DNA of 64,000 nt, taken from the NCBI RefSeq assembly GCF_963921235.1, contig NC_086097.1, positions 133,240,001 to 133,304,000 on the forward strand, read 5' to 3'. The DNA comes from Mobula hypostoma. Its lineage: Eukaryota. Of the stretch, positions 8,481 to 60,490 are shown piece after piece. Every line of letters begins with the position of its first letter. The stretch's first letter is position 1. Made by a program: the position numbers and the translations under genes. The notes beneath the pieces were generated by a model. The model was not told where the DNA came from, made no database searches, and saw nothing but the letters and a program-made list of their open reading frames with translations.

Positions 8481-9984
8481 AAGTTGATGGAAATATTGGG
8501 AGAGCAAAACAAGTTAGGATGAGGTTTGCATGAATATGGGTGCTTCACCCTTATGATTATATACACCTCCATAAGGTCACTCCTCAGTCTGAGTACAGTT
8601 CTCTCACCACAATACAAGGACTGACGAGAGAGTGGAGAAGTTTAAAGCTATTGGGGCACATTGTAGCTTTGAGGAAAAGGTGCTATTGTGTGACCCGCTG
8701 AGACCCCCCAGCTTTCTCCAGCATCTGCATCTTAGTGGTTTAATTATGAGAAGATGGTATTGATAGTGTGCTTTGCTTCAAACTTTTGTTCAGTACAATC
8801 TGTACTTAATGTTAAATAAAATCAAAAAATGCAGGGAACACTCAGCAGGTTGGGCAGCATCTGCAAAGAGAAAAAAATAGGATTAACATCTTTGGCTGAA
8901 GATCTTTCAGCAGATCTCCCTGCTTGGTTGAGGAATTGCACATTTTCTCTTTTTTTCCAGCATCTGTCTTTTTTAAAATGTTCATCTATATTGAAAATTG
9001 CCTACATGAAAGCTGCTGGCTCTTCCTCCTCCCCACAGTCACGTTTAAGGTCTCTTTATAAAAATAATTTGTGCTCATATAGAAGAAATAGAAGAGACTA
9101 TAAATGCTGGAATCTGAGCAACACACAATCTGTTGCATCTGTGTCTGGGGAGGGTGAGAGGAATTAGTACATAGGAAGAATACATGGCAGTCCTAATGCA
9201 GGGTTTCAATCCAAAACTTTGTCGAGTCCTTTCCCCCTAAATATGGTGCTCAACCCACTGAGTTCCTCGGCAGATTGCTGTGTTTATAAAGCAGCTCTCT
9301 GATCTCAGTTCACCTCAAGTCCTTTCCAGCTAGTTAAGTACTTTTCAGGTCCAGCTTCATACAAAATGTTGGATGTATGACTTATGGATTAAAGCTCCCA
9401 CAACAGTGGTGTGACAATGGCCACATTGTCAATGTTTTGAAATGTATTTGCTGGATTATTGTTGACCATAAACACAAAGAAAATCTTCGAAGTAATGGTT
9501 TTGTGATTAAAATGAAGGAGAATGGATGTTTCTTTTCCTTTGAAGCAAATGAGGCTGGGTGGAGGGCAGGCAGTGAGTGACCTAATACAGATATACAAAA
9601 TTATGAGTATAATATGTACTTGGTAGATGGTGAGAAACTTCTCTTTGGCAGAGTTATCCAAACTGAGTCAGGAGTAGGAGATTTAGAGGGATATAAGGAG
9701 ATCTTTTTTCATGGTTGGATCACAGGTGGAGTAGATATTTCACATTTTATAAAATTATCTAGATGAACATTTCTAAGCCTTGGCAATTGAAGGCCAGGTG
9801 CTGTTAAATGGGATAATTATAGATGGGTGTTTAATGGTCAGCATGAACATGGTGGGTCAAATGGCATGCTTCATTGCTGTTTGACACTGATGAGACCTCC
9901 TAGTATCTGTTCTGAATAATAGGTAAAACACAACAACAGCAGGTCCTTCAGTTCTTTGTGAGTATCTCTGATATATGTAGTAGA

Positions 9985-12314: not shown

Positions 12315-12492
12315 AGACACCTGTCCCCTGCTAGTTCTTGCTTACCACTTCCCTTCACCTTTTTATACTGGGTTCTCCCCTCTTTCTTTGTAGTCCAGAT
12401 GAAGGGTCTCGACCCGAAACGTTGACTGTCCATGTCTCTCCAGAGATGCTGCCTGGCCTGCTGAGTTCCTTCAGGGCTGTGTGTCTTGCTCC
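12315..12492 (+). mobile_element. Penelope-like element terminal-repeat fragment with hammerhead-like motif (12392-12427)
   Basis: agtc-CAGATGA-a-gggtc tc gaccc-GAAACGTT-gact followed by gatgctgcctggcctgctgagttcc, as in the GIY-YIG-linked copies. Confidence 0.7.
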
Positions 12493-13352
12493 ATGAGTTC
12501 CGCACTGTATTTGAGGTCAGAATCTTTCAACAGCTCTTCCTTGGTCAAGAAAGGCTGTGCTGGTATGCTGGAGTCGGTGGTGAACATCATCACCTTTGAG
12601 GGATGGCTGCAGAGATACAGAAATCACAACCATCAGGTAACAATCTGGAGAGTGCTTTCCATGGTTTGTCTGCCAACCTGTGGTGTTTGTTTGTAACTGC
12701 AGCCTATTTCAGTCACAGACACCGCAGTGGCTTTCTGACGGGTGAAGGTAACTCAAATCTTTTACCTCTTTTCACTAATATTACCAAATTAATCCATTTG
12801 TAGAGATCACGTTGGCCCCGATGTTGCTGGAAAGCTGTGCCAGCTTATATTCTCCTCTGCCTCCAGAGTACAAACTCAGCCTCCTGGTCAGAATGTGATG
12901 TTTTTATATTTTATTTAGAGATACAGCACAGTGGCCTTTCCAGCCCAATGAGTCCACACCAATTACATCCATGTGACCAATTACCTACTTACCTGTATGT
13001 CTTTGGGATCACAAAATAAAAGCGCCTTTGAGAAGAAATAAGCTGCAGATGCCAGGAATGTGCAATGGAAGCAAAAACTGTCTGAAATACTCAACAGGTC
13101 AGGCAGCATCTGTGGAGAGAGAAACAGTTAGAATTTCAGTTAAAGAGCAGCCTTGGGGATGAGAAGTTATCAGGGTAGAGTCAAAGTCAAAAGCCAAAGT
13201 TTATTGTCACATGCATAAATGCAATGGGGAAAACTTACTTGCCGCAGCTTCAAGGCACTTAGGATTACATATTCAGCATTCATAAGAAAAACATAAATTT
13301 TCAGAAGAAAGAAAATCAATTGAACAAATAAAACAATGTCTACGGTGGAGAT

Positions 13353-26800: not shown

Positions 26801-27470
26801 GTAAGGTGTAAGATCTGCATTTGCTGCTGCAAGCATAATAGTTACAATGGCTAACAATAATCCATCACCTGAACTGTGCTGCCAGCTTTATAGTTAGACA
26901 TTTCGGATCATTTCATCATCCAGTGACTGATGGAACCTCATGATAAACTTCATTCCCATACGTGGCTAACTCCATCGGCAGGAACTGGGAGCGGTTTGGC
27001 ACAGTGTATAATGGTGCTTTGTAGCACAGTGTTTCCAAGTTCATGTTTCCACAGGGCAATGACGTTGAATGGCATATTTATAAAGGATAACTGCTTGGTT
27101 ATCCGATGGCCCCAAGTAAGACACAAGTATATCATTAACATCTTTATCTTTGTGATGTGATAGTTACTAATAAGGTAATGTGGAGCTTGAAAATGATTAT
27201 TTCACCATAACCCCACTTGGGAGAGCTCTCTGTGGAGATGAGTAACATTTGTTGCTTCAGCCTGTGTCAGAGGATAAATTAATCAAGCATTTCCTACAAT
27301 TATTATGCTTTTGTCCAGATGCAAATTTAGTGCATTTTGTAAGCCAAAATCATTGTCCTGCAGAAGAGTCATGGCCCAAAACATCAGCAGTTCATTTCAC
27401 TCCATAGATGCTGCGTTCCTCCTGATATTTGTGTGTGTGTAGTTCTCTTGTGTCTCAATTAATGAAAATA

Positions 27471-30616: not shown

Positions 30617-30849
30617 AAAACGATGAGGAGCGGTGGGAGGAGGAAGAAGAGAAGGTTTAACACCACAAGTGTGAGATGAAGGAGGGCTCCTGTGAAACAC
30701 GAACAGAATGGGGCAGTTAGGGAATATGGTCTGCTTCTGTGCTGTAATTCCAGTCTAACTCCATGCGGCTTTGTGTTATTTCAGATTTTATGGACAATAA
30801 TGAATGTGTATTACATTTTCTGCTTGGGTAGCCTAAGAAAACCATAAAA

Positions 30850-31040
30850 CAAACTGCTGAAGGAAGTCAGCAGATCAAACAGCATCTGTGGAGGTGACGT
30901 TCAGGGGCTTCACCAGTCCCGACGTAGGGTCTTGACCTGAAACACTGACTGTCCCTTTTCTTCCCCCAACTGTTGCTTGACCTGTTGAATTCCTCCAGCA
31001 GTTTGTTCTTTGCTTTAAGTTCCAGCATCTGCAGTCTCTT
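30850..31040. mobile_element. Foldback mini-element derived from PLE terminal sequence
   Basis: Inverted arms (aaactgctgaaggaagtcagcag / cctgttgaattcctccagcagttt) enclosing a degenerate hammerhead motif at 30914-30951. Confidence 0.55.
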
Positions 31041-32534
31041 GCACGTCCTCTGTGTGAGGCAGGAAAACCACCAACAAACAAAATTCTGGAGGAACTCAGC
31101 AGGGCAGGCAGCATCTGTGGAGGGAAAAAGACATTACTTTTTGGGATTAAACCCTTTGTTAATTCAGTGAAATATGCAAGGAGACATTAGGACACTTGTT
31201 CAGCAGCATGGGTGACGAGTCGACAGGAGTCAACTGAAATTTATTAGGTATCACAATCTCAGCAGGTTGAGTAGCATCTGAGAGAGGAGAGGGAAGATGG
31301 CCTGTATAAAGAGGAGAAGGGGAGTCATGAGACTATATCCAAGACAATTGGTGGGTTGAGCAGATGACAGCAGGTTGTGCCAGGTAGGGGAGGGGAATGG
31401 TGTGGAGATTGGAGATAAAGGCAGGTGAATTACTGATGGAGGCACAAGAAGTGAGAAAAAAAAATAGAGTCAAATGGAGTGAGGTGAAGGGGGCGAGGAG
31501 GAATGTGGAGGTTGGGGGTGGATACTGGACAGATATGAGGAGGAATACAAGGAACTATAAGCTCTTATCCTGATGGGTCAAGAAGGTAATGATGGAATCC
31601 ATTAAGGAATCAGGACCTGATGGGGGAGAGATTTGGAAGGGAAGTGGGGTAGGGTGTTGAATTGCATATGCAGTGTGCCTTCATCCAAATGTTACTTGCA
31701 GGGCCCAGTATTATGTTCCTTTGTAAACAGGGAAGTACTATGAGGTACTATCTATAATGATCATCAGTGATTTTGGTAATACACTACCTGCTGTTAGTAT
31801 ATAGCACAGAGAGAGATTCTTGGATCTCTGGCTTCACCCAGAAGGCAGTATTAGGCCCTTGATGTCACTGAAGTTTGTGGAGTATGACTGACATTGCCTT
31901 TTGAGTGACGGATGGACAGTACTGGTCAGCTGCCCTTCCTGTGCAAGGATCTCAGCCTTACTATAAACCCAGGCCAGTGGGCTAGGAGCCATAATGAAGC
32001 GCGGGAGTGAGACCCAGGTTAAAACATGACCAGTAAATAGAACATAGAACAGCACTGCACAGAAAAAGGCTCTTTGGGGATAGGAAGGTGGAGCACAGAG
32101 CACAAGAAGGGAAGTGGAAGGGGCAGTGAGGGAGGGAAGCTAGTGGAAGGGGTGTCAGGTAATGGGAAAATGGAGAGGGGAAAGAGCCGGGATGATGGAA
32201 GACACGTAGAATATTTAGAACAGGGGTTGACAGAATTCTGGATATTAAGGGAATCATGAGATGTGGATGGGAACAGTGCAGGTAAATGGAGCTGAGATAG
32301 AAGAGCAGCCATGATTCTGAAGCATGGAGTGGGTGTAAGTGCTGTGTGGCCTATTCATTTGTTAGTCACTCCATACACCCTCCAGTGTCGTGACATAGCT
32401 TGATGCAGCTCACTGAAAAGTTTACAATTCAGTTCACCTTTCCTCATCACTCATTCACCAGCAAGTCCCTCACGTGCTCCAAGTGCAAGGCTCTTAATTG
32501 TAAGCACCTGAAGCCAGGAGTTAAAACAATAAAT

Positions 32535-33150: not shown

Positions 33151-33989
33151 CAAGTTGTGTGCAGGTGAAGTGGAATCAAGAGAGAAATGCCTGCAAGTGC
33201 CTCACATGCTCCAACTGTAACCAGGGGTAGCTTCTAGTCATAGTGAGGAGAGGTGGGGATGAGAAAGAGATAGATGGGAACAGAGAACAGAGACATTCAG
33301 ACAGAAATGGAAGGAGGGACAGACTTGCATTTCAATATCATCTTTCACAGCACCAGTCATTCCAGGTGTTCATGCAGTGCTTAAACAAAAACAGAAACTG
33401 CAGGAAACACTCAGCACTGCAGGCAACATCTGTGGGAAGGGAAAGAGTTAATATTTTGGAGCTGATGAAGCACCTTTGACTTGAAGCATTGACTCTGTTT
33501 CTTACATGCTGTCTGACCTGCTAAGTGTTTCCAGCATTGTCTATTTTATTTTAGATTTCCAGTAGTTGCAGTTTTTTCTGATTTCCTTACACATACAGCG
33601 TGGTCTTTGCTGTAAAGCAGGAGACGTGGCAACCAATATGCAGACAGCGGGATCTCATTAATAGCTGTCTGATAACAGCTAGGTTGTTCATTACTGTGAG
33701 GTTGAGAGGATCAATATTGACAGACACCTGACTAATATAACACTAACATCCCTTCCCTCTCCAAAATGGTTCGTGGCTTTAGTTTTGTCCTGATTGGAGA
33801 GATGGGTTATAAGGTACAGTGGGGTGATGAGGAGGGGGGGATAGGGGAGACAGTGTGTGGAGGAGGGAGGAGAAGGAGGAGTGGGAGAGAATGTGACAGA
33901 CAGCGAGAAAGAAACCAATAGAGAGGAAATGAATGTCAAGGAAGAAGGCTAGGGTGGTTTGCCAGGACTCAAGTTATAGGGAAAGGTTG

Positions 33990-34490: not shown

Positions 34491-35625
34491 GGAGCTCACA
34501 GGAGGATGTTGAGATAATGGTAGTTGATATCATGAAGCTGAAGCCATTACTTAGAATTCCATTGCTCTATTAGAAGCAGAGAAAGTCAGAGACAGTTATG
34601 GGTGGGGATGCAGAGAAATAGCTCGAGAGAGAAAAAGGGAAAGTGTTCTTGATTCAGAACCTGACCGCTATCAATGTCAACATTTGCCAACAAGGTGAGT
34701 CTGCACTGCTGGATCTGAAATCGCAGCAGAGTTTTCGGAGTCTAATCAGTTAACCTCATGATCACAGAGCCAACTAACTGCACCTCAAATGAAATGTGTA
34801 ATCTCAGCCCATACATCATGGTGCATGAATAATGTACATCGCTTTTGCTGATGATTTGTGTGACGTTCAGTACTTTCATTCAGTGTCATAATACATTTTG
34901 TTTTAAATGACATAAATATTTTAGTGATTCTGAAAAATCCAAATACCAGCTCAGACACTCTTTTAAATATTTACTTTAAATTCTCTTGTGCTGTGCCTAT
35001 GACGCCAACCAGCCAAAGTCTTTAGTGTATGTTGCGGGACAGCTAAAAGTTTTTGGTGATTCTTCCAGATGAAGGAGTGAATTTGGTCTCAGAAATAGGT
35101 CCTTCAACTTGTTAGATCCATGGTGATCCTTTCAGCATTTTACCGGTGTTTCCACAGTCTGTACAAATATTTATCTATTTTTTTAATGAAAGGGCAAGTT
35201 CAGATCAAACGGTATCTAGCATGCAGATGGGCAAGTCTGCATAATTGATGCTGTGACAGGTCACATTTATTCAGGCTTTTCAAATTACTCAAAGGTCACA
35301 TTTAATTTGTTACTGAATGTAACCTGTCACATTTTATGATCAATGCCTACTTGTTTATCACTCCATAGTGTTTACCAAGTTTGAGTTCATTGTCATAGGC
35401 ATACATACACCGGGTAGGAATACCACAAAGATTAGCACTGTGGCAGCAGCGCAGTATAGACCTGGAAAAACACAAGTTAACGAGTTTTAATTAAGATAAT
35501 TTACAAAATAAACATAACAATAGTGCAATTAGCGAGAGAAAGAGAAATGAAATATAGTCGAAGATCGTTTTTGAGTATTCCAGGTCGCTTTAAGAACCTA
35601 ATGTGAGTGACATAGAACCGATAGT

Positions 35626-36560
35626 ACACAGAAATGCTGGAAGAACTCAACAAGTCATGCAGAATCTATGGAGAGAAATGGACAGTCAACAATTCGGTCT
35701 GAGACCCTTTATCAGAACTGGGAAGTAAGAGGACAGAATAAGCCAAAGTAAGAAAGGTAGGGGAGGTGGAGTAAAAGCTGACAGCAAGTAGGTGAGTCAG
35801 GGTGAAAGGGGGTAGGTGGTTGGGGAGGGGGATGAAAGAGAATGATGAGAGAAGCTGAGAGGTGATAGGTACAAGAGTCAGAGTTGAAGGAGGAGGAATC
35901 AGATAGGGAAGGACCATGGATGACTGAATAAAGAGAAGGAGATGGGGAACTCAAGGGAGGTGATGAGCAGAATATGAGGGTGGGAGGGTGTAGAGGAGGA
36001 GTGAGCAGCTACAGGAATGAGGGAAAACAAAGGGGGTGGGAGAAAAAGGAAAACATGAAGGGAATGGTTTCTGGAAGTTAGTGAAATCAATGTTGATGCT
36101 GTCAGCTTGGAACTACCCAGACAGAATACCAGGAGCTGCTCCTCCATCCAGCATCAGGCTTCATCACGGCAGAAGAGGAGACCATGGGCTGACATGCAGC
36201 TGGGGGAATGGGATGTACAAATGAAATGGGTGGCCACTGGGAGATCCTGGCTGTTGCTGTGAACATAACGAAGGTGCTCAATGAAGCAGTCTCCAAATCT
36301 GTGTTGGTTCTCACTTATGTAAGGAAGGCTGCACCAGTAGCACCAAATACAATAAATTATACTGAATACTTGCAAGTGAAAGACTGCCTCACTTTAGGGC
36401 CCTGAATGATGGTGAGAGAGGAGGTATAGGAGCAGCTGCAGAGATAAGTGGAGGGAAATTGATGGGAAGGGACAAGCAGACAAGGAAGTCACAGAATGAG
36501 CAAAATGTGGACAGGGGTGGGGATGTGGGAAGATGTGCCTGATGGTGGGAGCCCATTGGT
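35626..36560 (-). mobile_element. Penelope-like retroelement 3' part (GIY-YIG endonuclease remnant plus terminal repeat)
   Basis: IIYCIWC..C.LPYISE...RFGDCFIEHL...DLPVATHF and EEQLLVFCLGS remnants; pyrimidine-rich tail; hammerhead-like motif at 35683-35720. Confidence 0.85.
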
Positions 36561-36569
36561 GATTGAATT

Positions 36570-37045
36570 GATTTCTCTAGCTCTAGTATCCACTCCCCTC
36601 TGTTTTCCTTTTTCTTCCTCCACCTCTTATCCCTCATTCCTGTGATCTCCCCTTCCCCTCCCCTGCCATTATAATCTGCCCACCACTTTCCTCTGGTTTC
36701 CTACCTCCTCCACTTTATTCCATGGTCTACTGTCCTCCATTATCAGATTATTCCTTCTTCAACCCTTTCTCTTCCATTTGTCACCTGTTTGCTTCTCACA
36801 CCATTTCCCCTTAACCCCTCCTTCCCCCACCTACCTTCATCCTCTCAGCTGGCCTCTCATTTCCTGCCAGTTTGTATTCCCTTCACCTCCCCCTACCTTT
36901 TTATTCTGGATTATGCCCTCTTTCTTTCCTGTCCTGGTGAGGGGTCTCAGCTGGAAACATCGTGTTCATTTTCCTCCTTAGATGCTGCCTGACTTGATGA
37001 GTTAGTTGGGCATTTTGTGTCTGTGCTCAAGATTTCCATCATTTG
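36570..37045 (+). mobile_element. PLE terminal-repeat fragment inverted relative to the adjacent PLE
   Basis: Same pyrimidine-rich tail, CTGGTGA...GAAACATC and gatgctgcctgac in the opposite orientation. Confidence 0.75.
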
Positions 37046-37049
37046 CAAA

Positions 37050-37500
37050 AACAGTAGGGAAGAAGTTGTTGGTGAATCTTAAAGTCTGGGTCTTCAGGCT
37101 CCTGTATGTCCTGTGTAATGGCAGCAGATGGTCGGGCCCCCGGGCAATGGTTGTCACCTTCCTGAGCCATTGCCTCTTGTAGATATCCTTAATGATGGCA
37201 CGGAATGGACCCATGATGGTAGTGACCAATTCCACCACTCTCTTTAGCCCCTCGTTTCTATGCATTGGAGTTCCAGTACTAGTAGGCCATGACACAACCA
37301 GTCAGAATGCTTTCCAATGACCATCTGTAGAAATTTGTTAGAGTCTCCGATGGATGACATGCCAAATCCCCTTAAACTTTTAAGAAAGCGGAGACTCTGG
37401 CACACCCTCCTTATGGTTGCATCTATTTGCCAGGCCCAGAACAGGTCTTCCAAGATGTTGACACCCATGAACTTGAAGGTGCTCTCCCTTTTCATGGCCA
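37050..37500 (-). mobile_element. Rex1/Babar-like fragment
   Basis: FKFMGVNILEDL, LRFLKSLRGFGMS and YRSLKTQTLRFTNNFFP. Confidence 0.8.
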
Positions 37501-42569: not shown

Positions 42570-42957
42570 AAATTAACGGATACAACTCAGTCCATCACGA
42601 GTAAAGCCCTCCCCAGCATTGAGCACATTCTTGCATCCATCACCAGGGACACCCCCAACCCAGGCTTCTCGCAGCTGCCATCAGGAAGGTGGTACAGGAG
42701 CCTCAGGACCCACACCACCAACTTCAGGAACAGCTATTACCCCTCTGTCTCCAGGCTTTTGAACTAGAGGGGATAACTTCACTTGCTCCGTTACTGAACT
42801 ATTCCCACAACCTATGGACCCACTTTCAAGGACTCTTCATCTCATATTCTCCATACTTATTTATTTACTATTATTTTTATCCTCTTTTAGGATTTGCAGT
42901 TTGTGGTCTGTTGCACACTGGTCTGTCCTGCTGGTGTGATCTTTCATTAATTCTACT
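42570..42957 (+). mobile_element. Rex1/Babar-like 3' fragment, continuing at ~46083-46148 after the CR1 insertion
   Basis: ccatcaggaaggtggtacaggagcctc (SGRxYRSL-like); tail aaatctcagggttgtatg...aactttg lies after the CR1. Confidence 0.75.
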
Positions 42958-45900
42958 ATGGTTGGGGGGTGGGAATCAAATTAAAGAGGCTAGGCGTGAG
43001 GACGTTAGTTCACAACAGGGGGATGGGAACCAGTGCAGAGAGACAGAGGGGTGTAAAGTGAGGGTAGAAGCAAAAAGTACTAAGGAGAAAAGTAAAAGTG
43101 GCAGGCCGACAAATCCAGGGCAAGCATTAAAAAGGGCCACTTTTCAACAAAATTGTATAAGGGCTAAGAGAGTTGTAAAAGAGCGCCTGAAGGCTTTGTG
43201 TGTCAATGCAAGGAGTATTCGTAATAAGGTGGATGAATTGAAAGTGCAGATTGTTATTAATGATTATGATATAGTTGGGATCACAGAGACATGGCTCCAG
43301 GGTGACCAGGGATGGGAGCTCAACGTTCAGGGATATTCAATATTCAGGAGGGATAGACATGAAGGAAGGGGAGGTGGGGTGGCGTTGCTGGTTAAAGAAG
43401 AGATTAACGCAATAGAAAGGAAGGACATAAGCCGGGAAGATGTGGAATCGATATGGGTAGAGCTGCGTAACACTAAGGGGCAGAAGACGCTGGTGGGAGT
43501 TGTGTACAGGCCACCTAACAGTAGTAGTGAGGTCAGAGATGGTATTAAACAGGAAATTAGAAATGTGTGCAATAAAGGAACAGCAGTTATAATGGGTGAC
43601 TTCAATCTACATGTAGATTGGGTGAACCAAATTGGTAAAGGTGCTGAGGAAGTGGATTTCTTGGAATGTATGCGGGATGGTTTTTTGAACCAACATGTCG
43701 AGGAACCAACTAGAGAGCAGGCTATTCTGGACTGGGTTTTGAGCAATGAGGAAGGGTTAATTAGCAATCTTGTCGTGAGAGGCCCCTTGGGTAAGAGTGA
43801 CCATAATATGGTGGAATTCTTCATTAAGATGGAGAGTGACATAGTTAATTCAGAAACAAAGGTTCTGAACTTAAAGAGGGGTAACTTTGAAGGTATGAAA
43901 CGTGAATTAGCTAAGATAGACTGGCAAATGACACTTAAAGGATTGACGGTGGATATGCAATGGCAAGCATTTAAAGGTTGCATGGATGAACTACAACAAT
44001 TGTTCATCCCAGTTTGGCAAAAGAATAAATCAAGGAAGGTAGTGCACCCGTGGCTGACAAGAGAAATTAGGGATAGTATCAATTCCAAAGAAGAAGCATA
44101 CAAATTAGCCAGAGAAAGTGGCTCACGTGAGGACTGGGAGAAATTCAGAGTTCAGCAGAGGAGGACAAAGGGCTTAATTAGGAAGGGGAAAAAAGATTAT
44201 GAGAGAAAACTGGCAGGGAACATAAAAATGGACTGGAAAAGCTTTTATAGATATGTAAAAAGGAAAAGACTGGTAAAGACAAATGTAGGTCCCCTGCAGA
44301 CAGAAACAGGTGAATTGATTATGGGGAGCAAGGACATGGCAGACCAATTGAATAATTACTTTGGTTCTGTCTTCACTAAGGAGGACATAAATAATCTTCC
44401 AGAAATAGTAGGGGACAGAGGGTCCAGTGAGATGGAGGAACTGAGCGAAATACATGTTAGTAGGGAAGTGGTGTTAGATAAATTGAAGGAATTGAAGGCA
44501 GATAAATCCCCCGGGCCAGATGGTCTGCATCCTAGAGTGCTTAAGGAAGTAGCCCAAGAAATAGTGGATGCATTAGTGATAATTTTTCAAAACTCGTTAG
44601 ATTCTGGACTAGTTCCTGAGGATTGGAGGGTGGCTAATGTAACTCCACTTTTTAAAAAAGGAGGGAGAGAGAAACCGGGAAATTATAGACCGGTTAGCCT
44701 AACGTCGGTGGTGGGGAAACTGCTGGAGTCAGTTATCAAGGATGTGATAACAGCACATTTGGAAAGCGGTGAAATGATCGGACAAAGTCAGCATGGATTT
44801 GTGAGAGGAAAATCATGTCTGACGAATCTCATAGAATTTTTTGAGGATGTAACTAGTAGAGTGGATAGGGGAGAACCAGTGGATGTGGTATATTTGGATT
44901 TTCAAAAGGCTTTTGACAAGGTCCCACACAGGAGATTAGTGTACAAACTTAAAGCACACGGTATTGGGGGTAAGGTATTGGTGTGGGTGGAGAATTGGTT
45001 GGCAGACAGGAAGCAAAGAGTGAGAATAAACGGGACCTTTTCAGAATGGCAGGCGGTGACTAGCGGGGTACCGCAAGGCTCAGTGCTGGGACCCCAGTTG
45101 TTTACAATATATATTAATGACTTGGATGAGGGAATTAAATGCAGCATCTCCAAGTTTGCGGATGACACGAAGCTGGGTGGCAGTGTTAGCTGTGAGGAGG
45201 ATGCTAAGAGGATGCAGGGTGACTTGGATAGGTTGGGTGAGTGGGCAAATTCATGGCAGATGCAATTTAATGTGGATAAATGTGAAGTTCTCCACTTGGG
45301 TGGCAAAAATAGGAAAACAGATTATCTGAATGGTGGCTGATTAGGAAAAGGGGAGGTGCAACGAGACCTGGGTGTCATTATACACCAGTCATTGAAAGTG
45401 GGCATACAGGTACAGCAGGCGGTGAAAAAGGCGAATGGTATGCTGGCATTCATAGCAAGAGGATTCGAGTACAGGAGCAGGGAGGTACTACTGCAGTTGT
45501 ACAAGGCCTTGGTGAGACCACACCTGGAGTATTGTGTGCAGTTTTGGTCCCCTAATCTGAGGAAAGACATCCTTGCCATAGAGGGAGTACAAAGAAGGTT
45601 CACCAGATTGATTCCTGGGTTGGCAGGACTTTCATATGAAGAAAGACTGGATGAACTGGGCTTGTACTCGTTGGAATTTAGAAGATTGAGGGGGGATCTG
45701 ATTGAAACGTATAAGATCCTAAAGGGATTGGACAGGTTAGATGCAGGAAGATTGTTCCCGATGTTGGGGAAGTCCAGAACGAGGGGCCACAGTTTGAGGA
45801 TAGAGGGGAAGCCTTTTAGGACCGAGATTAGGAAAAACTTCTTCACACAGAGAGTGGTGAATCTGTGGAATTCTCTGCCACAGGAAACAGTTGAGGCCAG

Positions 45901-46082
45901 TTCATTGGCTATATTTAAGAGGGAGTTAGATATGGCCCTTATGGCTACGGGGGTCAGGGGGTATGGAGGGAAGGCTGGGGCGGGGTTCTGAGTTGGATGA
46001 TCAGCCATGATCATAATAAATGACGGTGCAGGCTCGAAGGGCCGAATGGCCTACCCCTGCACCTATTTTCTATGTTTCTATG
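42958..46082 (+). mobile_element. Young CR1 (family A) with near-intact ORF2 (APE endonuclease + RT)
   Basis: One reading frame from ~42960 to 45991 broken only by TGA at 45338-45340; NARS, ETW, GDFN, SDH, QGSVLGP and FADD motifs; ttctatgt tail. Confidence 0.97.
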
Positions 46083-46616: not shown

Positions 46617-48320
46617 ATCCCCCTCAAGTACAACAGGAAGGAATGCTTCAAAATGGAAAAATATCCTTGCTCTGTGTTGTATATTAACAGTCTTACTATT
46701 CATGCATTAACTAGCATTTACTGAGTCCCTCCAAAGAGAATGATTGCATACAAATATGATCTTTACCAATCAGGTATCTAGCCTGGTGCTCTTAATGCAA
46801 ACTTGCCTAATTCAAATTTATCTGTTAACCAGATTTTTAAAAAAGAACTGTTTATTTAAATTTCTTAATTTGAGCCACAGGATGTTGTGAGCAAAGAGAT
46901 TTTAAATTAACTGGAGTAGACAGTATAATGAATGGAATGTGTTATTGCTTATATATACTAGTCCCACAGTAATTCGAAATATTTTAGAAACGATGTGAAG
47001 GTGCCAATGGTCTTAGAACTCTTTCCACTCTCCTTTTCTGTGGATAAGGAATCTAATGTTTTATAATGAATTTTATTGCGTCTTAACACTATTACTGTAA
47101 AATATCATGACAATTGCTAAGGTTTTACTAAATATATTAGCACTGTGGTAAAGTGACATCTTGTCTGACAGTTGCTGTTCAATTCAATAAACTCCATTTT
47201 GAACAGAAATGTCATTGGTTACTTGTACCCAAAGAAGCATCTCAGTAGTATAATAATCCTGACTGTCTATTCTTCACACACTCTATGGTGCAATGCAGAT
47301 AAGCAGCATTACGTGTTGTAAAGCTGTGAACATTAAGGTGTTACACTAACATGATGTGTGAAAATGTTATCAGTAAGCTATAACCTCAAACTAACATTAA
47401 ATTCCACATCAATGGGCCAAGACCATTGCTATGTGAGTGCTCTTTTGAATTGCACTGTTCTTGAAATTGAAGCAATATTTTTATCACCTTTACATTTACC
47501 TTTTTGTTTGTTATCCAAGTGTAGTGCATTAAAATGGCAAATTTACACAAAGCTTAAGGTGGTTGCCTTCTCAGAGGTAAACACCCTTCATGTTAGCCAC
47601 GAGGGTGAATTGTCTCTGCAGCCATGAAACGTATACATGCACCAAGAATTTAATTTGAAAGAAATACAAGGGGATGATACACACTCACAGACACTGATAG
47701 GACACTCGTAGTCTACTTCTAGCACCTGCTGTTTTTACTGCAGATGTAGGAAGAGTATAGTTTATACCCGCCCTCCCTCGGTAATGCTGCTGCTACTGCT
47801 GCTCTTTGATTAGACGTCTTCCTTTTGCCAGTTGTGGCTTATTCTCCAGTGGGTGACAAAGCATGATACCATCCATTCTCCAACTGGTAATATCTAAAAT
47901 GCACAGGCAGGTGAAAGTAGAGACTTATTAATTAGTTTTCCGATCTATTGCCAGTTTATGTATGGTAACTTGCTTATAGAGAACACATACTAGAAAAAGA
48001 TGAATGATCATGTATGACTGAGTGATATTTCTGAATGTAAATGTAAAAAATAATGCAGCTAAACTGTTTGTCCATGTTAAAATAAAGTTAGTTATAATTC
48101 AACTACAAAGATTGCTGTTTTGCATGTTTGATGTTTGTTGAAAATGCTCCAAATTAACAAAGTTTTATTGCAAAATCTTTACAGTAGACCTCTCCCATGT
48201 TTGATGGTTTGAATGCCAGTCACTAACCACTTTACATTATCAAGAACAAAAAATAAGCTCTAATGGATTCCTTGTATCATTAAACAACTCTTCAAAATGT
48301 ATTATTGAAGCAATAAAGAG
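46617..48320 (+). other. MBP: Probable MBP 3' UTR (end uncertain)
   Basis: AT-rich sequence largely free of recognisable repeats after the stop codon; AATAAA at 47186-47191, 48081-48086 and 48312-48317. Confidence 0.6.
47345..47395 (+). promoter_or_regulatory. Candidate QKI response elements in the MBP 3' UTR
   Basis: ACTAAC cores at 47345-47350 and 47390-47395 with a TAAC half-site at 47381-47384; another ACTAAC at 48222-48227. Confidence 0.55.
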
Positions 48321-48959
48321 CTTAAAGTAACAAATCCTCTAAATCAATAAGGTCTGACTGCAACTATTTCATCCTAGGGAAGTATTAAGTAAAGATGTTT
48401 CTGAAAAGATAAACATTGCATTAAACAGAAAAAAGTATTCAAAGGACAAGCACTTTGTCACAAAGACAATGCCTTAAATAAGCTCACTATTTAAAATTTA
48501 ACATTTAGCAAATGAATGTGCAGAAGTGCCCAATGTGAATGTGGACCACAGGTTCCCAACCTGGGATCCATGGGCCCCTGCACTAGAGGGATATCTGTAC
48601 ACCCTGGGTATAGAGCACAAAGAAAATGGAAACTTATGGCCACTCAGCTCATCCTCTTACTGCCTGCCACAGTCAACGGATTTCCCCTATCCTCTCACAT
48701 GGTGCGGCCTTGAAAGTGATAGGGTACTGCAGGATGCCTCCATTACTCACCAAGACTTCTTCCAAAATCCCACGATCTTTTCCAACTGCAGAGACGGGTA
48801 GCAGGTAGCGTCACCACTTGTGAATTCTCTCCAACTTACTTTATCTGGGACTTGGAAATACATCAATGTTCCTTCACTGACGCTTGGATACAAATCCTGG
48901 AACTCTGTCCAACTGGAATGTGGGAGTACCTTTACCAAATTAATTAAGGCAGATTAAGA

Positions 48960-52561: not shown

Positions 52562-53208
52562 CTGCAAAACAGTGCAAATATTTTCAGTCATAATGAATGC
52601 ACTCAAATTTCAGCCAGACATTTGGTTTCTGGTGGATTTAAAGACTGACAGTTCTCCATTTTGAAATTAAACCATGTTGATGGGAAACAAAGTCTTCCAA
52701 ACTTTCCAGACTGAGACATTATATCATGTGACAACTTCCCCTCCTCAATCTCCTCTCCATAATTCTTTTTAAAAAATGTTTAATCTTACTCTGATTACAG
52801 CTGAGTTTTTGTTGTTGCATGAAATTACATTACATTATAATGTAATGGATTCATTGCATCATTAAGTAGTTCTTCAAACTATTATTGAAGCAAGAAGGAT
52901 GGTCCATAAAAGTAATAAATCTCCCAAATCAGTAAGCTCTGGCTGCAACTATTTCATCCTGGGCAAGTATTAAGTAAACACTGGAGGCTTTTCAATAAAA
53001 GATAAACATTGTATGAAACAAAAGAACACTCAAAAGGACAAGCACTTTGTCAAAAAGACAATGCCTCAAATAAACTCTCTATTTAAAATTTAACATTTAA
53101 CAAATGAATGTGCAGAAGTGGCTAATGTGAATCTAGATCAGCGTATGCTACAAGCATACTAAAATTCAAGAATCAATAATATACTTTTAAGCACTATTAA
53201 CTGTAGAT

Positions 53209-54109
53209 CAGGGGTCCCCAACCTTTTTTCACCACAGACCGGTTTAATATTGACAATATTCTTGCAGAGCAGCCGACGGGGGGGTGGGGGAGGGGAGTTG
53301 TTCAAGTAGGGTTAAACTCACCTCAACATGTCTTTTACAGTTAGGGTTGCCAACTTTCTCACTCCCAAATAAGGGACAAGAAAGCAGTCAAATCCTGACG
53401 AAGGGTCCCAGCCTGAAAAGTCAACTGTACCTCTTCCTATAGATGCTGCCTGGCCAGCTGCGTTCACCAGCACCTTTTCTGTGCATTGACGGGACACTTG
53501 TGTTTACCCCAAGAAAGACTACCATGCCATGAAGCCTTGCGCAGGCACCCGTGTGCGCATGCATGATATGCGTTTATGTGACGTGCGCATGCGCGTACGT
53601 GCTGATTTTTTCCCCCCACATATCGGTCTTGGCTTAATCTTCCCAACTACACTGTACATACATTATTTCTACTTTATATAGGCTGTGTATTTATCATATC
53701 ATTCCTGCTTTTACTATATGTTAGAGCTATTTTAGGTTTTATGTGTTATTTGGTATGATTTGGTAGGTTTTTTTTGGGTCTGGGAAAGCTCAAAAATTTT
53801 TCCCATATAAATTCATGGTAATTGCTTCTTCGCTTTATGCCATTTCGGCGTGAAAGGTTTCATAGGCACGCTCTACCTTAGCGGGGGAAATACGGGACAA
53901 GGGTGGTCCCATATGGGACAAACCAATTTAGCCTAATATATGGGATGTCCCAGCAAATACGGGACAGTTGGCAACCCTATGTTCAAGTTCAACAGTGCGT
54001 GACAGGGAATGAGGAGAGGTGCAGCTGACTCACATCGTTTCCTCACAGCCCGGTAGCACATGCTTTGCGGCCCGGTAATAGTCCGCGGCCTGGTAGTTGG
54101 GGACCGCTG
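53209..54109. mobile_element. Composite non-autonomous hAT(Charlie-type) element
   Basis: TIRs caggggtccccaac / gttggggaccgctg; 8-bp TSD ctgtagat (53201-08) / ctgtagag (54110-17). Confidence 0.85.
53307..53979. mobile_element. Nested hAT(Blackjack-like) element
   Basis: TIRs tagggttgccaac (53342) / gttggcaacccta (ending 53979); repeated gggac subterminal motifs; TSD tgttcaag at 53299-306 and 53980-87. Confidence 0.8.
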
Positions 54110-55284
54110 CTGTAGAGCATGTGGAAATATTGCTTATATTGTTAGAATTTGACAGCAGGGTTACAAGGGAAATGGGGAGGAAAATGCACCTTAATTCATC
54201 TGTGCTCTGGCTAATTATTGTACCAAACATAGGCCTTGATATGAGTGGAGAGATTAAAAGATACACCTTTAAACAGAGCAAAGTAACCTAAATAAAGCTG
54301 CAATACAAGTACACTGCATTTTCACTTTACTTAACAATCATGCCAAATTACAACACACCTGTTCAAATTTCTTAATTTTTTACTTCTGATGTTAACAAGC
54401 TCAATATTTACAATGCCTAGACAGCTGCAATTGTTCTCAATCCCACATCTATTAAGCAGCAATTCAGATGGAGCAATTAAGTTATGCACACTAAATTATG
54501 CATATCCATCAGTTATTAAAATTCAGAGTAAAATAGTGAAGTCATAAATAAATCATGTTACCACACATCAGTTCAACTTCCTTTCACTCTCCTTGATCCT
54601 TAAATCATATTGTTTACTTAAAATTATCAACAGCTGCTGTGGTTGGTTTTAAGAACTTTATATAATTATGGACAAATCATATACGAGGCAATTTGATCCA
54701 CTTTCATTTCTGAAAGTGCTACAAATTAGTTCCAGTCCCCTTCTCTTTCATTACTACTCTATGTATTTCTTTCCTGTACTACATTTACTAGTGCTTTTTA
54801 TACATTTACATTTAATTTCTCCTCGAGAGCTGAAACTCAAACCTGTATCCAGTGGCACTAGTGGATTTGGGATCAGACACTTTGAAGAGCATTCAGGGTA
54901 TACCCAACTTTGAAAAAGCTTTCCTCCTCTCTTCACTTGATCCTTCAATACAGATGAAGTTCTCAGGTGCACTTCCCTCCACAGATGCTACATGACTCAC
55001 TGAGTTCATCCAGCATCTTGTTTATTGCTCGGAATAAACATATCCATTAATTAATAAAAAAAAACCTTATTTCCATCCAGGCTTTTTCCTCCCAGTTACC
55101 ATAAAACTGCAATTGGGAACAAGTCCTGCCTCATGTTCTCCATCAAAACCACTCAAATTTTGAACATTGCTAATCAAACTTCTAAGTTTTTTAAAGAAAT
55201 TAGAATGTTCAATATTGGCTTCCAAAATTTCTCACATAGCACCATTTGTATTGTCCAAAGCTCCATGTTGAACTGAATGAATAC

Positions 55285-55414: not shown

Positions 55415-56639
55415 CTTGGATTAAAAGAAAGCACATTTCCATTCTTTACACACCCAAAACTCACATTGATAAATTGAGACACAAGAAACTGCAGATGCGG
55501 GAATCTGGAGTAACGATCTGCTGTAAGAGCCCAGCAGTCTGAGCAGCATTCGGGGGGGCAAGGAGGAATTGTTAATCATTCAGATCTGATGCAGGATTAC
55601 AACCCAAAACGTTATCAATTCCTCCTCTCCCCCCCCCATAGATTTCCTGCAACATGTTGTTTGTTGCTTCAATAAATAATGTTATAATTTTATTTGCACT
55701 CCAGAAATTTCTGATATAAACCTATAAAAATCATTGGCAGCTCCTCATGAAAATATTTCACCTCACCTTATGTCTAAATCTTGTGATAGTGATTTTAAAT
55801 CTGTGACATTTGCTTGTTGATCTATTTGCCAAAGGGAAATGCTTTTATGCCCTATTATGAAAACCTGTCATCTTGAAAACCTCTACTAGGTTGCAGTTCA
55901 ATCTTCTGTCATAATTATAGAGAAATTTGGCCTAACATGCCCATGTCAACAACCACACACTCACCTCATTGAACCCATTTTCCAATATTCAGGCTCTTGC
56001 CTTTATGCCTTGCTGATCTAAGTGCTTGCTTCGGTACTTTTTAAACACCGTGAGAGTAACTGTTTCCAACGTCACTCAGGCAGTGTATTCCAGATTCCAA
56101 ATATCTCTGGGTGACAATATTCTTCCTCAGATCCCCTTTAAACTCAAGTTCTCTAATCGTTGGCATGACCATTACAGAAAAGCTTTCATTACATCCAAAC
56201 TATAAAAACTTTCTTCTTAAACTATAAGCTCTCCTTGCTCATCCTTAGTAACCTTCTGATGAACCTCTTGTGTATACCTCAGAAGTCCTTTGTGTGCAAC
56301 TGTGGGCACCCTTGAGAAAACAATGCAGAATACTGTTGGGGCCTGACCAGAAATTTAAGATCAGTGAATGAGAATCTCACATCAATAAAATGCAGGCACA
56401 AAATAAGTCTCATTTTCAGGTCATGCATTGAAAGCCTGCATACTCCAGCAGCACTGGCTTAAATAAACCAGCAGCAAGTTCCAAAATTAAATGAAGCTCT
56501 GGCCTAAGTGAACAAAAACACATCAAGACAGCTGCCTCCGCTTTTATTCCACATTGGTTTACATCTTGCACTTGTCACCAGCCAACATTGATGCGGAGAA
56601 AAATACGTTAGGCAATTAGGCAACCGTACCGGTTACAGG

Positions 56640-58885
56640 GAGCTGCCTTAATGACTATCGCCTGGTAATATTCACATCTACAGTGAAGAAATGGTTTGAG
56701 AGTTTGGTCATGACCAGACTGAACTCCTGCCTCAGCAAGGACCTGGACCCATTGCAATTTGTCTATCACCACAATAGGTCAATGGTAGATGCAATCTCAA
56801 TGGCTCTTCACGCAGCTTTAGACCATCTGGACAACACAAACACCAACATCAGGATGCTGTTCATCGACTATAGCATCATTCCCACAATCCTGATTGAGAA
56901 GTTGCAGAACCTGGGCCTGTACCTCCCTCTGCAACTGGATCCTCGACTTCCTAATCAGAAGCCCACAATCTGTGAGGAGGATGCTAAGAGGATGCAGGGT
57001 GACTTGGATAGGTTAGGTGAATGGGCAAATTCATGGCAGATGCAATTTAATGTGGATAAATGTGAGGTTATCCACTTTGGTGGCAAAAACAGGAAACAGG
57101 TTATTATTTGAATGGTGGCTGATTAGGAAAAGGGGAGGTGCAACGAGACCTGGGTGTCATTATACACCAGTCATTGAAAGTGGGCATACAGGTACAGCAG
57201 GCGGTGAAAAAGGCGAATGGTATGCTGGCATTCATAGCAAGAGGATTCGAGTACAGGAGCAGGGAGGTACTACTGCAGTTGTACAAGGCCTTGGTGAGAC
57301 CACACCTGGAGTATTGTGTGCAGTTTTGGTCCCCTAATCTGAGGAAAGACATCCTTGCCATAGAGGGAGTACAAAGAAGGTTCACCAGATTGATTCCTGG
57401 GACGGCAGGACTTTCATAGGATGAAAGACTGGATCGACTAGGCTTATATTCGTTGGAATTTAGAAGATTGATGGGGGATCTTATTGAAACGTATAAAATC
57501 CTAAAGGGATTGGACAGGCTAGATACAAGAAGATTGTTCCCGATGTTGGGGAAGTCCAGGACGAGGGGTCACAGTTTGAGGATAGAGGGGAAGCCTTTTA
57601 GGACCAAGATAAGGAAAAACTTCTTCACACAGAGTGGTGAATCTGTGGAATTCTCTGCCACAGGAAACAGTTGAGGCCAGTTCATTGGCTATATTTAAGA
57701 GGGAGGTAGATATGGCCCTTGTGGCTAAAGGGATCAGGGGGTATGGAGAGAAGGCTGGTACAGGGTTCTGAGTTGGATGATCAGCCATGATCATACTGAA
57801 TGGCGGTGCAGGCTCAAAGGGCCGAATGGCCTACTCCTGCACCTATTTTCTATGTTTTCTATGTTAATCTGTGCGGATTGGTGATAACATCTCCTCCTCA
57901 CTGACGATCAACACTGGTGCACCTCAGGGTGCGTGCTTAGCCCACTGTTCTACTCTCTATATACCCATGACTGTGTGGCTAGGCATAGCTCAAATACCAT
58001 CTATAAGTTTGCTGACGATACAACCATTGTTGGTAGAATCTCATGTGGTGATGACAGGGCGTACAAGAGTGAGATATGCCGACTAGTGGAATGGTGCCAC
58101 AGAAACAACTTGGTACTCAACGTCAGTAAGACGAAAGAGCTGATTGTGGACTTCCGGAAGGGTAAGACAAAGGAACACATAACAATCCTCAGAGGGATCA
58201 GAAGTGGAGAGAGTGAGCAGTTTCAAGTTATTGGGTGTCAAGATCTCTGAGGATCTAACCTGGTTCCAACATATCGATGCAGTTATAAAGAAGGCTAGAC
58301 TGTGGTTATACTTTATTAGGAGTTTGAGGAGATTTGGTATGTCAACAAATACACTCAAAAACTTCTATAGATGTACCATGGAGAGCATTCTGACAGGCCG
58401 CATCACTGTCTGGTATGGGGGGGGGGCAGTGGGGGCTACTGCATAGGACCGAAAGAAGCATAAGAGGGTTGTAAAGCTAGTCAGCTCCATCTTGGGTACT
58501 AGCCTACAAGGTACCCAGGACATCTTCAGGAAGCAGTGTTTCAGAAAGACAGCGTCCATTATCAAGGATCTCCAGCACCCAGGGCATGCCCTTTTCTCAT
58601 TGTTACCATCAGGTAGGAGATAAAGAAGCCTGAAGGTACACACTCAGTGATTCAGGAACAGCTTCTTCCCCTCTGACATCTGATTCCTCAATGGACATTG
58701 AACACCACCTCACTTTTTAAAAAATATATAGTAGTTCTGTTTTTGCATGATTTTTAATCTATTCAATATATGTATACTGTATAAAGTATACCGAATAAGA
58801 TTTATTTATTTATTCATTTCTTCTATATTTATTGCATTGAACTGCTGCTGCTAAGTTAACAAATTTCACATAACATGCCGGTAAT
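56640..58885 (+). mobile_element. Rex1/Babar-like LINE (RT and 3' end) in a ZNF236 intron, split by a CR1
   Basis: [34 protein letters not shown] and FYRCTMESILT motifs; tail aataaacctgattctgatt. Confidence 0.92.
56975..57865 (+). mobile_element. 5'-truncated CR1 (family A variant) inserted in Rex1
   Basis: 8-bp TSD aatctgtg at 56967-74 and 57866-73; RT C-terminus and ttctatgt tail. Confidence 0.95.
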
Positions 58886-59324
58886 AATAAACCTGATTCT
58901 GATTACAGGAAGGCCAAATGCTGAGTCAGGTTCTATGCTGGCTCCAGCTATGTATCAGCCATTGGAAAAGAACAGGGAATAGGCAGAGTATTGAATGTGT
59001 GCAAGCACAAATTGCATGTGCAAATGAAATATAACAATTATCAAACATCTGAGATGTCTACTGGCTCTGCAAAAGATGAATATATTCTTCCAATACAAAC
59101 ATATCGTGCTTTGCTGGTAGACAGTGGTGACAAGGCTCCTGAGTTTGTATGATACCTGTAGTAATGACAACAGTGATGGCTACACAGAACAATATCATTT
59201 ATCTGAGCTCTAATCCAAGACCTCATTACAACCTCATCTACACTTATCCATAGAGCTGTGTAGATCTCACACCTTTTGTTCACTGTGGTGAATCAAAGGG
59301 AGAATGCCTTCAAATACTAAACAG

Positions 59325-59730: not shown

Positions 59731-59754
59731 CTGGTATGAGAACTAGTCTACTGT

Positions 59755-60262
59755 CACGAGGCCACACTCAGATTGGATGAGCCACACCTTGCATTCCGTC
59801 TGGGTAGCCTCCAACCTGATGGCATGAACACCAATTTCTCCAACTTCTGGTAATGCCTCCACCCCCCTTCCCCATTCCCATCCCCTTTTCCCACTCTCAC
59901 TTTAACTCCTTGCCTGCCCATCACCTCCCTCTGTTGCTCTAACCCCCTTTTCTTTCTTCCATGGCCTTCTGTCCGCTCCCATTAGATTCCCCCTTCTCCA
60001 GCCCTGTATCTCTTTCACCAATTAACTTCCCAGCTCTTTACTTCACCCTTCGCCCTCCCAGTTTCACCTATCACCTTGTGTGTTTTTCCCTCCCCTCCCC
60101 CCACCTTTTAAATCTACTCCTCATCTTTCTTTCTCCAGTCCTGCTGAAGGGTCTCGGCCCGAAACATCGACTGTACTCTTTTCCATAGATGCTGCCTGGC
60201 CTGCTGAGTTCCTCCAGCATATTGTGTGTTGCTTAGATTTCCAGCAGCTGCAGACTTTCTCT
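59755..60262 (+). mobile_element. Penelope-like element 3' end and terminal repeat
   Basis: Encodes ATLRLDEPHLAFRLGSLQPDGMN (GIY-YIG domain C-terminus), then a pyrimidine-rich tail and a hammerhead-like motif. Confidence 0.85.
60136..60173 (+). ncRNA. Minimal type I hammerhead ribozyme-like motif (degenerate)
   Basis: Stem I cagtc/gactg, core CTGCTGA (consensus CUGANGA), stem II gggt-ctcg-gccc, GAAACATC (consensus GAAACGUC). Confidence 0.65.
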
Positions 60263-60490
60263 TGTAAGAGACTTAATGAGTTGAATAGTCTTCTTCTTTG
60301 TCATAAGGAAATATGAAAGTATCATTGAACCCTCCAAATGCAACAGCTTAAGGAAATTAAGTTGATATTCTAGTGCTACAATTTTCTAGGAATTGAATCA
60401 AAAACTTGAAGGCCTGGGGCAATGCACAAACAAGGACAATAAAGCAAGAGAAGCAAACTTAATATATTTGTTAATTAGTTCATCCACTAC

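What the first reader, a model, noticed from the sequence alone, without database searches (positions are those of the whole stretch)
60136..60173. Dispersed family of minimal hammerhead-ribozyme motifs in Penelope-like element termini
Seen: the same motif recurs at 12392-12427(+), 30914-30951(+), 33462-33495(+), 35683-35720(-), ~36930-36962(+), 53395-53427(+) and 60136-60173(+). My by-eye consensus is cagtc-CTGATGA-a-gggtctcg(a/g)ccc-GAAACGTC-gactg: stem I, CUGANGA core, stem II, then GAAA with a loopless palindromic ACGU stem III and a GUC cleavage triplet. Two copies lie downstream of GIY-YIG coding remnants. Established: PLE terminal repeats carry minimal type I hammerheads thought to work as dimers. 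Inference: this abundant elasmobranch repeat end is a ribozyme. Every copy here has at least one core or stem mutation, often at CpG, so all may be inactive.
Basis: partly seen in the sequence, partly recalled or inferred. Interest (0 to 1): 0.7.

Follow-up and report, generated by a model that had tools for sequence, protein, structure and literature searches.

The report
Ray Penelope ends with minimal hammerheads
The repeated motif is real and is the already described tiny hammerhead (self-cutting RNA) motif at the end of a Penelope-type jumping gene, likely from a ray; the copies checked here are decayed and predicted not to cut, and the 60136 copy likely belongs to a large sub-lineage that spread with a core letter changed in a way known to weaken cutting.

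Summary
Observation confirmed. All seven listed copies exist; about six more degraded ones were found. Seven 38-mers (query included) lie within 10 mismatches of the 60136 copy, against 0 in 20 null windows. Two copies follow GIY-YIG endonuclease remnants whose best relatives are stingray, skate and whale-shark proteins. In four DNA runs (115,000-131,000 contigs laid each) the majority letters spell the minimal hammerhead core, matching the published Penelope min-HHR consensus (PMC4209133). So: a new member of a known kind. None of 8 ungapped copies is intact; stem covariation does not exceed shuffles; folding does not favour the active dimer; cleavage is untested. One correction: the C at core position 6 of the 60136 copy is probably inherited, not private decay. 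A holds only 51-69% of depth there versus 91-95% at private sites. A6C cuts poorly in Mg2+ (PMC7151607), and an anole Penelope inserts without cleavage in vitro (PMC11167929), so cutting is likely dispensable for spread. This scan has noted the motif, and the A6C lineage, many times on other DNA. Interest low.

The parts
60136..60173 (+). Minimal type I hammerhead motif: stem I 5' arm 60136-60140, core 60141-60147 (C instead of A at position 6, 60144), extra A 60148, stem II 60149-60152 with 60157-60160, GAAA 60161-60164, 15.2/16.2 at 60165/60166 (A instead of G), predicted cut between 60168 and 60169, stem I 3' arm 60169-60173
59743..59853 (+). C-terminal remnant of a Penelope-like GIY-YIG endonuclease with its stop codon; 5'-truncated
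   Evidence: tblastn of P0002, 63% over 35 aa, E 2e-7; stop codon
59854..60135 (+). Pyrimidine-rich 3' non-coding part of the pseudo-LTR
   Evidence: similar to 35626-36091(-) and 36567-37020(+)
60174..60262 (+). Tail downstream of the motif, shared by all copies; 3' end approximate
35603..36455 (-). 5'-truncated Penelope copy: damaged Zn-finger linker and GIY-YIG remnant, pseudo-LTR, motif 35720-35683, tail; the frame remnant may reach about 36560 (by eye)
36567..37050 (+). Adjacent inverted 5'-truncated copy (end of ORF, pseudo-LTR, motif 36929-36966, tail); 334 of 477 columns identical to the minus arm
12346..12507 (+). Short copy: about 45 bases of pseudo-LTR, motif 12391-12428 (only core change U4 to A), tail
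30841..31037 (+). Fold-back stub: inverted tail, motif 30914-30951, tail
33373..33579 (+). Fold-back stub: inverted tail, degraded motif 33457-33495 with a different stem II, tail
53390..53489 (+). Stub that begins at the motif (core intact, stem I and palindrome broken), tail
9090..9296 (+).
27353..27447 (+).
55484..55669 (+).
8814..8918 (-). Degraded motif with C at position 6 and tail; possible short inverted tail upstream (borderline)
31059..31164 (-). Stub with badly degraded motif and well-kept tail
54951..55029 (+). Stub with the 5' half of the motif only, and tail

Best explanation
The repeats are decayed 3' ends of a very abundant GIY-YIG Penelope-like retrotransposon, likely of a ray, whose family consensus carries the minimal type I hammerhead motif known from such elements; the motif would cut only weakly, in pairs or with help from the element's protein, and cutting is likely not needed for insertion. 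Steps. Shown: the order endonuclease, stop, pyrimidine-rich pseudo-LTR, motif, tail; an intact core in the majority letters; heavy CpG-type decay; 5' truncation and inverted arms. Inferred from studied Penelope elements: a tandem source is transcribed, reverse transcription starts internally about 90 bases downstream of the motif (the tail end) and runs back through the still uncut motif, so insertions long enough carry it; early stops give stubs, and a second inverted arm gives fold-backs. In a transcript with two pseudo-LTRs the two ACGU palindromes would pair to make helix III and allow slow cutting 3' of GUC, trimming or circularising part of the RNA. Inferred here: a multi-copy lineage with C at core position 6, to which the 60136 copy likely belongs, kept spreading, which fits cutting being dispensable. 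The window copies are predicted inert.
For: Motif and spacing match the published consensus (CUGANGAH, G10.1-C11.1, GAAAN, palindrome, NUH; PMC4209133 Fig. S3). Majority letters in runs X1, X5, X8, X10: the only large variant in the core that CpG decay cannot explain, apart from position 6, is at the free position 7 (C in 18-35%); 11.1 C to U (22-37%) and 17 C to U (12-25%) keep the fold or the NUH rule. A second reference gives U at position 4 in 76-94% of depth in four runs, including a distant organism with another tail. The fourth stem II pair is U-G in 6 and U-A in 4 of 11 window copies. The isolated 38-mer folds stems I and II (pair probabilities 0.88-1.0) and no helix III. Endonuclease remnants match elasmobranch proteins; relatives P0055 and P0141 carry an RT upstream. 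Adjacent inverted 5'-truncated copies are typical of Penelope insertions (PMC8557442); 12 of the 15 best-supported joints are opposite-strand joints at the motif. In the anole element hammerhead mutants insert normally in vitro, uncut RNA is the main substrate and cutting needs the protein (PMC11167929).
Against: No cleavage was measured. Covariation in 11 window copies is at shuffle level (270 of 500 shuffles reach the score). With majority letters the active dimer (-19.9 kcal/mol) is above two monomers (-21.0 with stems I+II only, -12.7 each at their minimum) and far above the dimer minimum (-33.7). In six genomic contexts stem I pairing is 0.05 or less; the 156-base context folds no better than shuffles (z -0.05). 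Depth shares are reference-biased and are not copy numbers: at 16.2 G is only 36-62%, under half in X10, and the same bias may inflate the C6 share several-fold. No target-site duplication above null at any of 11 elements. No RT or full-length source element in the window. Rfam does not score the motif. Run X1 may be the window's own sample.
Confidence: 0.85

Rival explanations
1. Cleavage is an obligatory step: the A6 lineage cuts as a dimer and circularises the RNA, and C6 copies are non-autonomous passengers or are rescued in mixed dimers or by Mn2+.
For: Proposed for Penelope hammerheads, with low but detectable dimer cleavage in vitro (PMC4209133). A6C keeps good activity in Mn2+ (PMC7151607). 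A remains the majority letter at position 6 in 4 of 4 runs. The opposite-strand joints end at 60172-60186, just 3' of the cut site.
Against: Anole hammerhead mutants insert normally in vitro and no RNA reads end at the cut site (PMC11167929); Naiad elements amplify without canonical hammerheads (PMC8557442). All 13 copies examined include sequence 5' of the cut site (but they were picked for carrying the motif). The joints rest on 0-8 contigs each and 330 more were not shown.
Confidence: 0.2
2. The short copies are a separate non-autonomous element (SINE-like or retrozyme-like, motif plus tail, often as a fold-back) whose RNA starts just 5' of the motif.
For: Only 4 of 13 motif-bearing copies have pseudo-LTR upstream; 4 have an inverted tail within 100 bases upstream, 1 is borderline, 4 have neither. 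Depth rises about eightfold across 60125-60152. Retrozymes derive from Penelope pseudo-LTRs (10.64898/2026.07.22.740005).
Against: No tandem array of the motif in the window self-comparison. The stubs have different stem II types and junctions. Loose ends before the motif give a pyrimidine-rich, pseudo-LTR-like consensus in runs X1, X13 and X18 (agreement only 0.33-0.44). The depth step can come from sub-family divergence upstream.
Confidence: 0.15
3. The motif is a non-catalytic relic kept as an RNA signal (protein binding, promoter or start-codon context), and never cut in this family.
For: The active fold is not favoured; no covariation shown; only 1 of 9 Xenopus dimers cut in vitro (10.64898/2026.07.22.740005).
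Against: All catalytic letters and the spacing are kept in the majority letters and in a distant organism with a different tail, with variation falling on position 7 and on wobble-compatible sites.
Confidence: 0.1

Closest known systems
Minimal type I hammerheads (min-HHR) in pseudo-LTRs of metazoan Penelope-like elements, Cervera and De la Pena 2014 (PMC4209133; main text parts 1-2 of 4, supplement file 2 part 2 of 3)
   Same: CUGANGAH core with an extra base before stem II, G10.1-C11.1, GAAA, loopless palindromic 15.2/16.2, NUH, 5-bp stem I, place in the pseudo-LTR, mostly solitary copies, opposite-strand pairs close together
   Different: Stem II is 4 bp (7-8 bp in the Schistosoma families); no cartilaginous fish in the part of the Fig. 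S3 list I saw (from Schistosoma onward) or by term search of two supplement files; a probable C6 sub-lineage
Poseidon element PAc of Anolis carolinensis, Frangieh et al. 2024 (PMC11167929; part 1 of 4 and passages)
   Same: GIY-YIG Penelope element with a hammerhead upstream of a tail that marks the internal RT start
   Different: Relatives of this family carry the Cys linker of Neptune/Nematis, not Poseidon; nothing here was assayed
Neptune/Nematis clades of endonuclease-bearing Penelope-like elements (PMC8557442; passages)
   Same: C-terminal GIY-YIG; C-x(2-5)-C-x-x-C linker in the best hit P0002 and in 42 of the 119 hits with a recognisable endonuclease motif; inverted 5'-truncated neighbours
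   Different: No RT in the window, so the clade was not placed on a tree; the linker is partly deleted in the window copy
Non-LTR retrozymes, Li et al. 2026 (10.64898/2026.07.22.740005; parts 1-3 of 5, supplements closed)
   Same: Type I hammerhead from Penelope pseudo-LTRs; reported in one Chondrichthyes genome
   Different: Retrozymes are defined as tandem arrays; the window copies are solitary or inverted, and two are still joined to endonuclease remnants
Natural A6C hammerhead of phage Bcep176 (PMC3088659 passages; PMC7151607 part 1 of 4)
   Same: C at core position 6
   Different: A single phage ribozyme, versus a probably multi-thousand-copy retrotransposon lineage whose activity is untested

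Membership tests
Penelope min-HHR | Core CUGANGA, GAAA, U16.1-H17 in the family consensus | tested here: met
   Majority letters in 4 of 4 DNA runs; U4 in 4 of 4 runs. Depth-weighted and reference-biased.
Penelope min-HHR | Core intact in the individual window copies | tested here: not met
   7 of 8 ungapped copies have a core change; the eighth has stem I and the palindrome broken
Penelope min-HHR | Stems I and II, extra base after A9, G10.1-C11.1 | tested here: met
   Pair probabilities 0.88-1.0 for the isolated 38-mer; 73% of cells paired versus 18-49% when slid
Penelope min-HHR | Palindromic 15.2/16.2 without helix III loop | tested here: met
   G at 16.2 in 59, 62, 51 and 36% of depth; loose-end consensus at 60174 has G in 4 of 4 runs, though some other loose-end rows show the decayed A
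Penelope min-HHR | Compensatory changes in the stems | tested here: inconclusive
   Covariation score 0.285, reached by 270 of 500 shuffles; stem II varies on one side only
Penelope min-HHR | Self-cleavage as dimer | not testable with these tools
   Folding energies do not favour the active dimer; no assay
Endonuclease-bearing Penelope-like element | C-terminal GIY-YIG followed by pseudo-LTR with hammerhead and tail | tested here: met
   the window remnant itself has no Pfam hit, its relatives hit GIY-YIG just under the curated cut-off
Endonuclease-bearing Penelope-like element | Telomerase-like RT upstream of the endonuclease | tested here: inconclusive
   Absent from the truncated window copies; RVT_1 present in relatives P0055 and P0141
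Neptune clade | C-x(2-5)-C-x-x-C linker | tested here: met
   In P0002, P0003, P0055, P0141; partly deleted at 36455-36369; shared with Nematis
Neptune clade | Placement on an RT tree | not tested
   No RT in the window and no reference set on hand
Non-LTR retrozyme | Tandem repeats with a hammerhead in each unit | tested here: not met
   No head-to-tail array of the motif in the window; genome not available
Rfam hammerhead families | Score at the gathering threshold | tested here: not met
   expected for a motif without helix III (inference)

The most novel reading that the evidence does not exclude
A lineage of this Penelope family with C at hammerhead core position 6 retrotransposed to many thousands of copies in several related fish genomes beside the A6 lineage, although A6C nearly abolishes Mg2+-dependent cutting: a natural experiment showing in vivo that the Penelope hammerhead need not cut for the element to spread (or that it became Mn2+- or protein-dependent).
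Probability: 0.45. Interest if true: 0.5.

Novelty: new member of a known kind. Interest (0 to 1): 0.27.

Why it matters
The class is known, so the motif alone adds a host lineage and a very large copy set. What Penelope hammerheads are for is still open (PMC8557442 calls it unclear). A family with co-existing A6 and C6 lineages in several genomes gives a direct test: measure cutting of both and compare their ages and copy numbers. If the weak variant spread as well as the intact one, cutting is not a required step of Penelope retrotransposition in vivo.

Tried and rejected
No whole genome is held, so no genome-wide tree, copy count or true covariation test. Pattern scans for the motif or the tail found 0 loci in metagenome contigs, viral contigs (28, 32) and prokaryote genomes (39). 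Word-indexed protein searches with the endonuclease remnant and with the translated motif region (meant to count A6 versus C6 copies in gene models) found nothing; phmmer did. Rfam: nothing. Target-site duplications: best repeats at 11 of 11 elements matched by 66-200 of 200 random pairs. Idea that inverted arms start exactly at the cut site: the joints allow it, one window stub (9188) looks so by eye, but three others run further into the motif and one search listed no joints; not supported. Transcription: run X18 holds the motif (346 contigs laid) but is RNA only by guess; no claim made. One search listed no variant beyond 12397, probably because only exact-seed contigs were laid; not used for core conservation there. 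In one search the anchors of three degraded copies (31164, 54951, 55574) were set by eye and 55574 was 12 bases off. The first script timed out. Lunse et al. (RNA Biol 14:1499) is not held; known only through the review PMC6765202; it may list cartilaginous fish.

Full report
Observation. Four more whole but degraded motifs and two partial ones were found. Seven places lie within 10 mismatches of the 60136 copy, itself included, against 0 in each of 20 Markov-resampled windows. Read in hammerhead numbering, the 60136 copy has stem I (60136-60140 with 60169-60173), core 60141-60147, one extra A, a 4-bp stem II with a 4-base loop, GAAA, and the predicted cut between 60168 and 60169. It departs from the canonical form at position 6 (C for A) and at 16.2 (A for G). 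Of 8 ungapped copies 7 have a core change and the eighth (53390) has stem I and the palindrome broken. Rfam scores none.

What it sits in. Upstream of the 60136 and 35720(-) copies lie C-terminal GIY-YIG remnants (tblastn E 2e-7 and 1e-28), a stop codon and about 280 pyrimidine-rich bases. phmmer of the 79-residue remnant over 1.84 billion proteins gave 290 hits at E<=0.001. Of ten looked up, eight are named from Hypanus sabinus (best, 58% identity), Leucoraja erinacea or Rhincodon typus, one from a crinoid, and one has no name, so the host is likely a ray. Relatives carry an RT upstream (P0055, P0141) and the C-x(2-5)-C-x-x-C linker (42 of 119 hits with an endonuclease motif, of 150 listed) that marks Neptune and Nematis elements (PMC8557442, passages); the clade was not placed on a tree. 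35603-37050 is a 5'-truncated copy with an adjacent inverted copy (334 of 477 columns identical), the usual Penelope arrangement. Of 13 motif-bearing copies 4 have pseudo-LTR upstream, 4 have an inverted tail upstream, 1 is borderline and 4 have neither. No target-site duplication beat the null at 11 of 11 elements.

Family consensus. No genome is held, so I laid public contigs on two copies. On 60090-60290, runs X1, X5, X8, X10 (four organism codes) gave 129,652, 114,936, 131,491 and 121,267 contigs, mostly on the tail. No other letter reaches 5% of depth at C3, U4, G5, G8, A9, A13, A14, A15.1 or U16.1. Position 7, free in hammerheads, has C in 18-35%. G12 to A (15-30%), 15.2, 17 and 1.1 changes are CpG-type. 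11.1 is U in 22-37%, which keeps a wobble pair. 16.2 is G in 59, 62, 51 and 36%; the loose-end consensus at 60174 has G in all four runs, while some other loose-end rows show the decayed A. On 12346-12436 (4,445, 346, 3,040 and 21 contigs) position 4 is U in 94, 92, 94 and 76%, and the distant organism J has the motif with a different tail. These are summed depths, biased toward the reference letters, with some differences uncounted; they are no copy numbers, and X1 may be the window's own sample. The majority motif fits the published consensus of Penelope minimal hammerheads (PMC4209133). Covariation in 11 window copies is not above shuffles (270 of 500).

Position 6. A holds 68, 69, 65 and 51% of depth at 60144, whereas letters private to the window copy are replaced in 91-95% (60129, 60221); G and T are each under 5%. 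After subtracting these the C share is at least 13-31% of depth at that place, or 7-25% relative to depth at 60153. Reference bias may inflate this several-fold, as it does for A at 16.2, but a private change would give the depth of one copy (about 15 in X1, record 1) against more than 130,000 depth units. Three of 11 aligned window copies have C there. I infer a multi-copy C6 lineage; I could not show that it is one clade. A6C is a known natural variant with low activity (PMC3088659), poor in Mg2+ and good in Mn2+ (PMC7151607).

How it likely works. Isolated, the 38-mer forms stems I and II but no helix III. Two copies could pair their ACGU palindromes; that dimer scores -19.9 kcal/mol with majority letters and -13.0 for the 60136 copy as it is, above two monomers (-21.0) and the dimer minimum (-33.7 and -29.3). 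In six genomic contexts stem I pairing is 0.05 or less. This fits the low in-vitro activity of such motifs (PMC4209133) and the anole Penelope, whose hammerhead cuts only with the protein, whose mutants still insert, and whose RT starts internally at the tail on uncut RNA (PMC11167929). Most likely the source is a tandem element whose RNA is copied from the tail back through the uncut motif; truncation gives stubs, a second inverted arm gives fold-backs (12 of the 15 best-supported joints are opposite-strand joints between 60136-60140 and 60172-60186, 0-8 contigs each). Cutting would be a slow, assisted side step. All of this mechanism is inferred; the anatomy, majority letters and decay are shown. 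The window copies are predicted inert.

Known and new. The class was described in 2014, and type I hammerhead tandems were reported in one Chondrichthyes genome in 2026 (10.64898/2026.07.22.740005; its supplements are closed and may describe this family). Nine searches showed no paper on this ray family or on an A6C Penelope lineage; Lunse et al. could not be read and supplement file 1 of PMC4209133 was not searched. This scan has noted the same motif in at least six other genomes and repeatedly in this one, and the A6C lineage three times; I reached the A6C lead before seeing those notes, and they are not independent evidence.

Verdict. Real, correctly interpreted, a new member of a known kind; interest 0.27. 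The one point worth a specialist's time is the A6/C6 pair as a test of whether Penelope hammerheads must cut (probability 0.45, interest 0.5 if true).

Noticed in passing
window 42623-46082(+), with copies at 27801-30635, 21892-23073, 56970-57883, 5756-6733(-): A young LINE-type family, copies 94-98% alike, with a 905-codon open endonuclease-RT-like frame at 42623-45340; looks CR1/L2-like by eye, not scanned.
   Followed up: no
window 9090-9296, 30841-31037, 33373-33579, 55484-55669: Four 185-210-base fold-back stubs in which the plus arm begins within a few bases of the hammerhead motif's 5' edge and the inverted arm ends in or just 3' of the motif.
   Followed up: partly
window 9188-9225 and 55581-55619: Two fold-back stubs have C at position 9 of the core followed by A; 9188 checked, both aligned. 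Possibly another variant sub-family.
   Followed up: no
window 31258-31500(-): A pseudo-LTR-like pyrimidine-rich stretch joined directly to a tail fragment, with the hammerhead motif apparently missing in between (by eye).
   Followed up: no
window 53208-53560: The 53390 stub appears to be inserted into another repeat that looks like a DNA-transposon end (by eye and recall).
   Followed up: no
window 60145-60191 frame from 60144: With A at position 6 the core letters 6-8 read AUG and open a 14-codon frame through stem II; the C6 variant removes this start codon. In the anole element the ORF starts inside the hammerhead (PMC11167929). Read by eye.
   Followed up: no
window 24012-24848 and 58045-58909; 48261-48548 and 52843-53140; 41200-41303 and 42135-42238: Other two-copy repeats (81-91% alike), the last pair inverted about 0.8 kb apart.
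   Followed up: no
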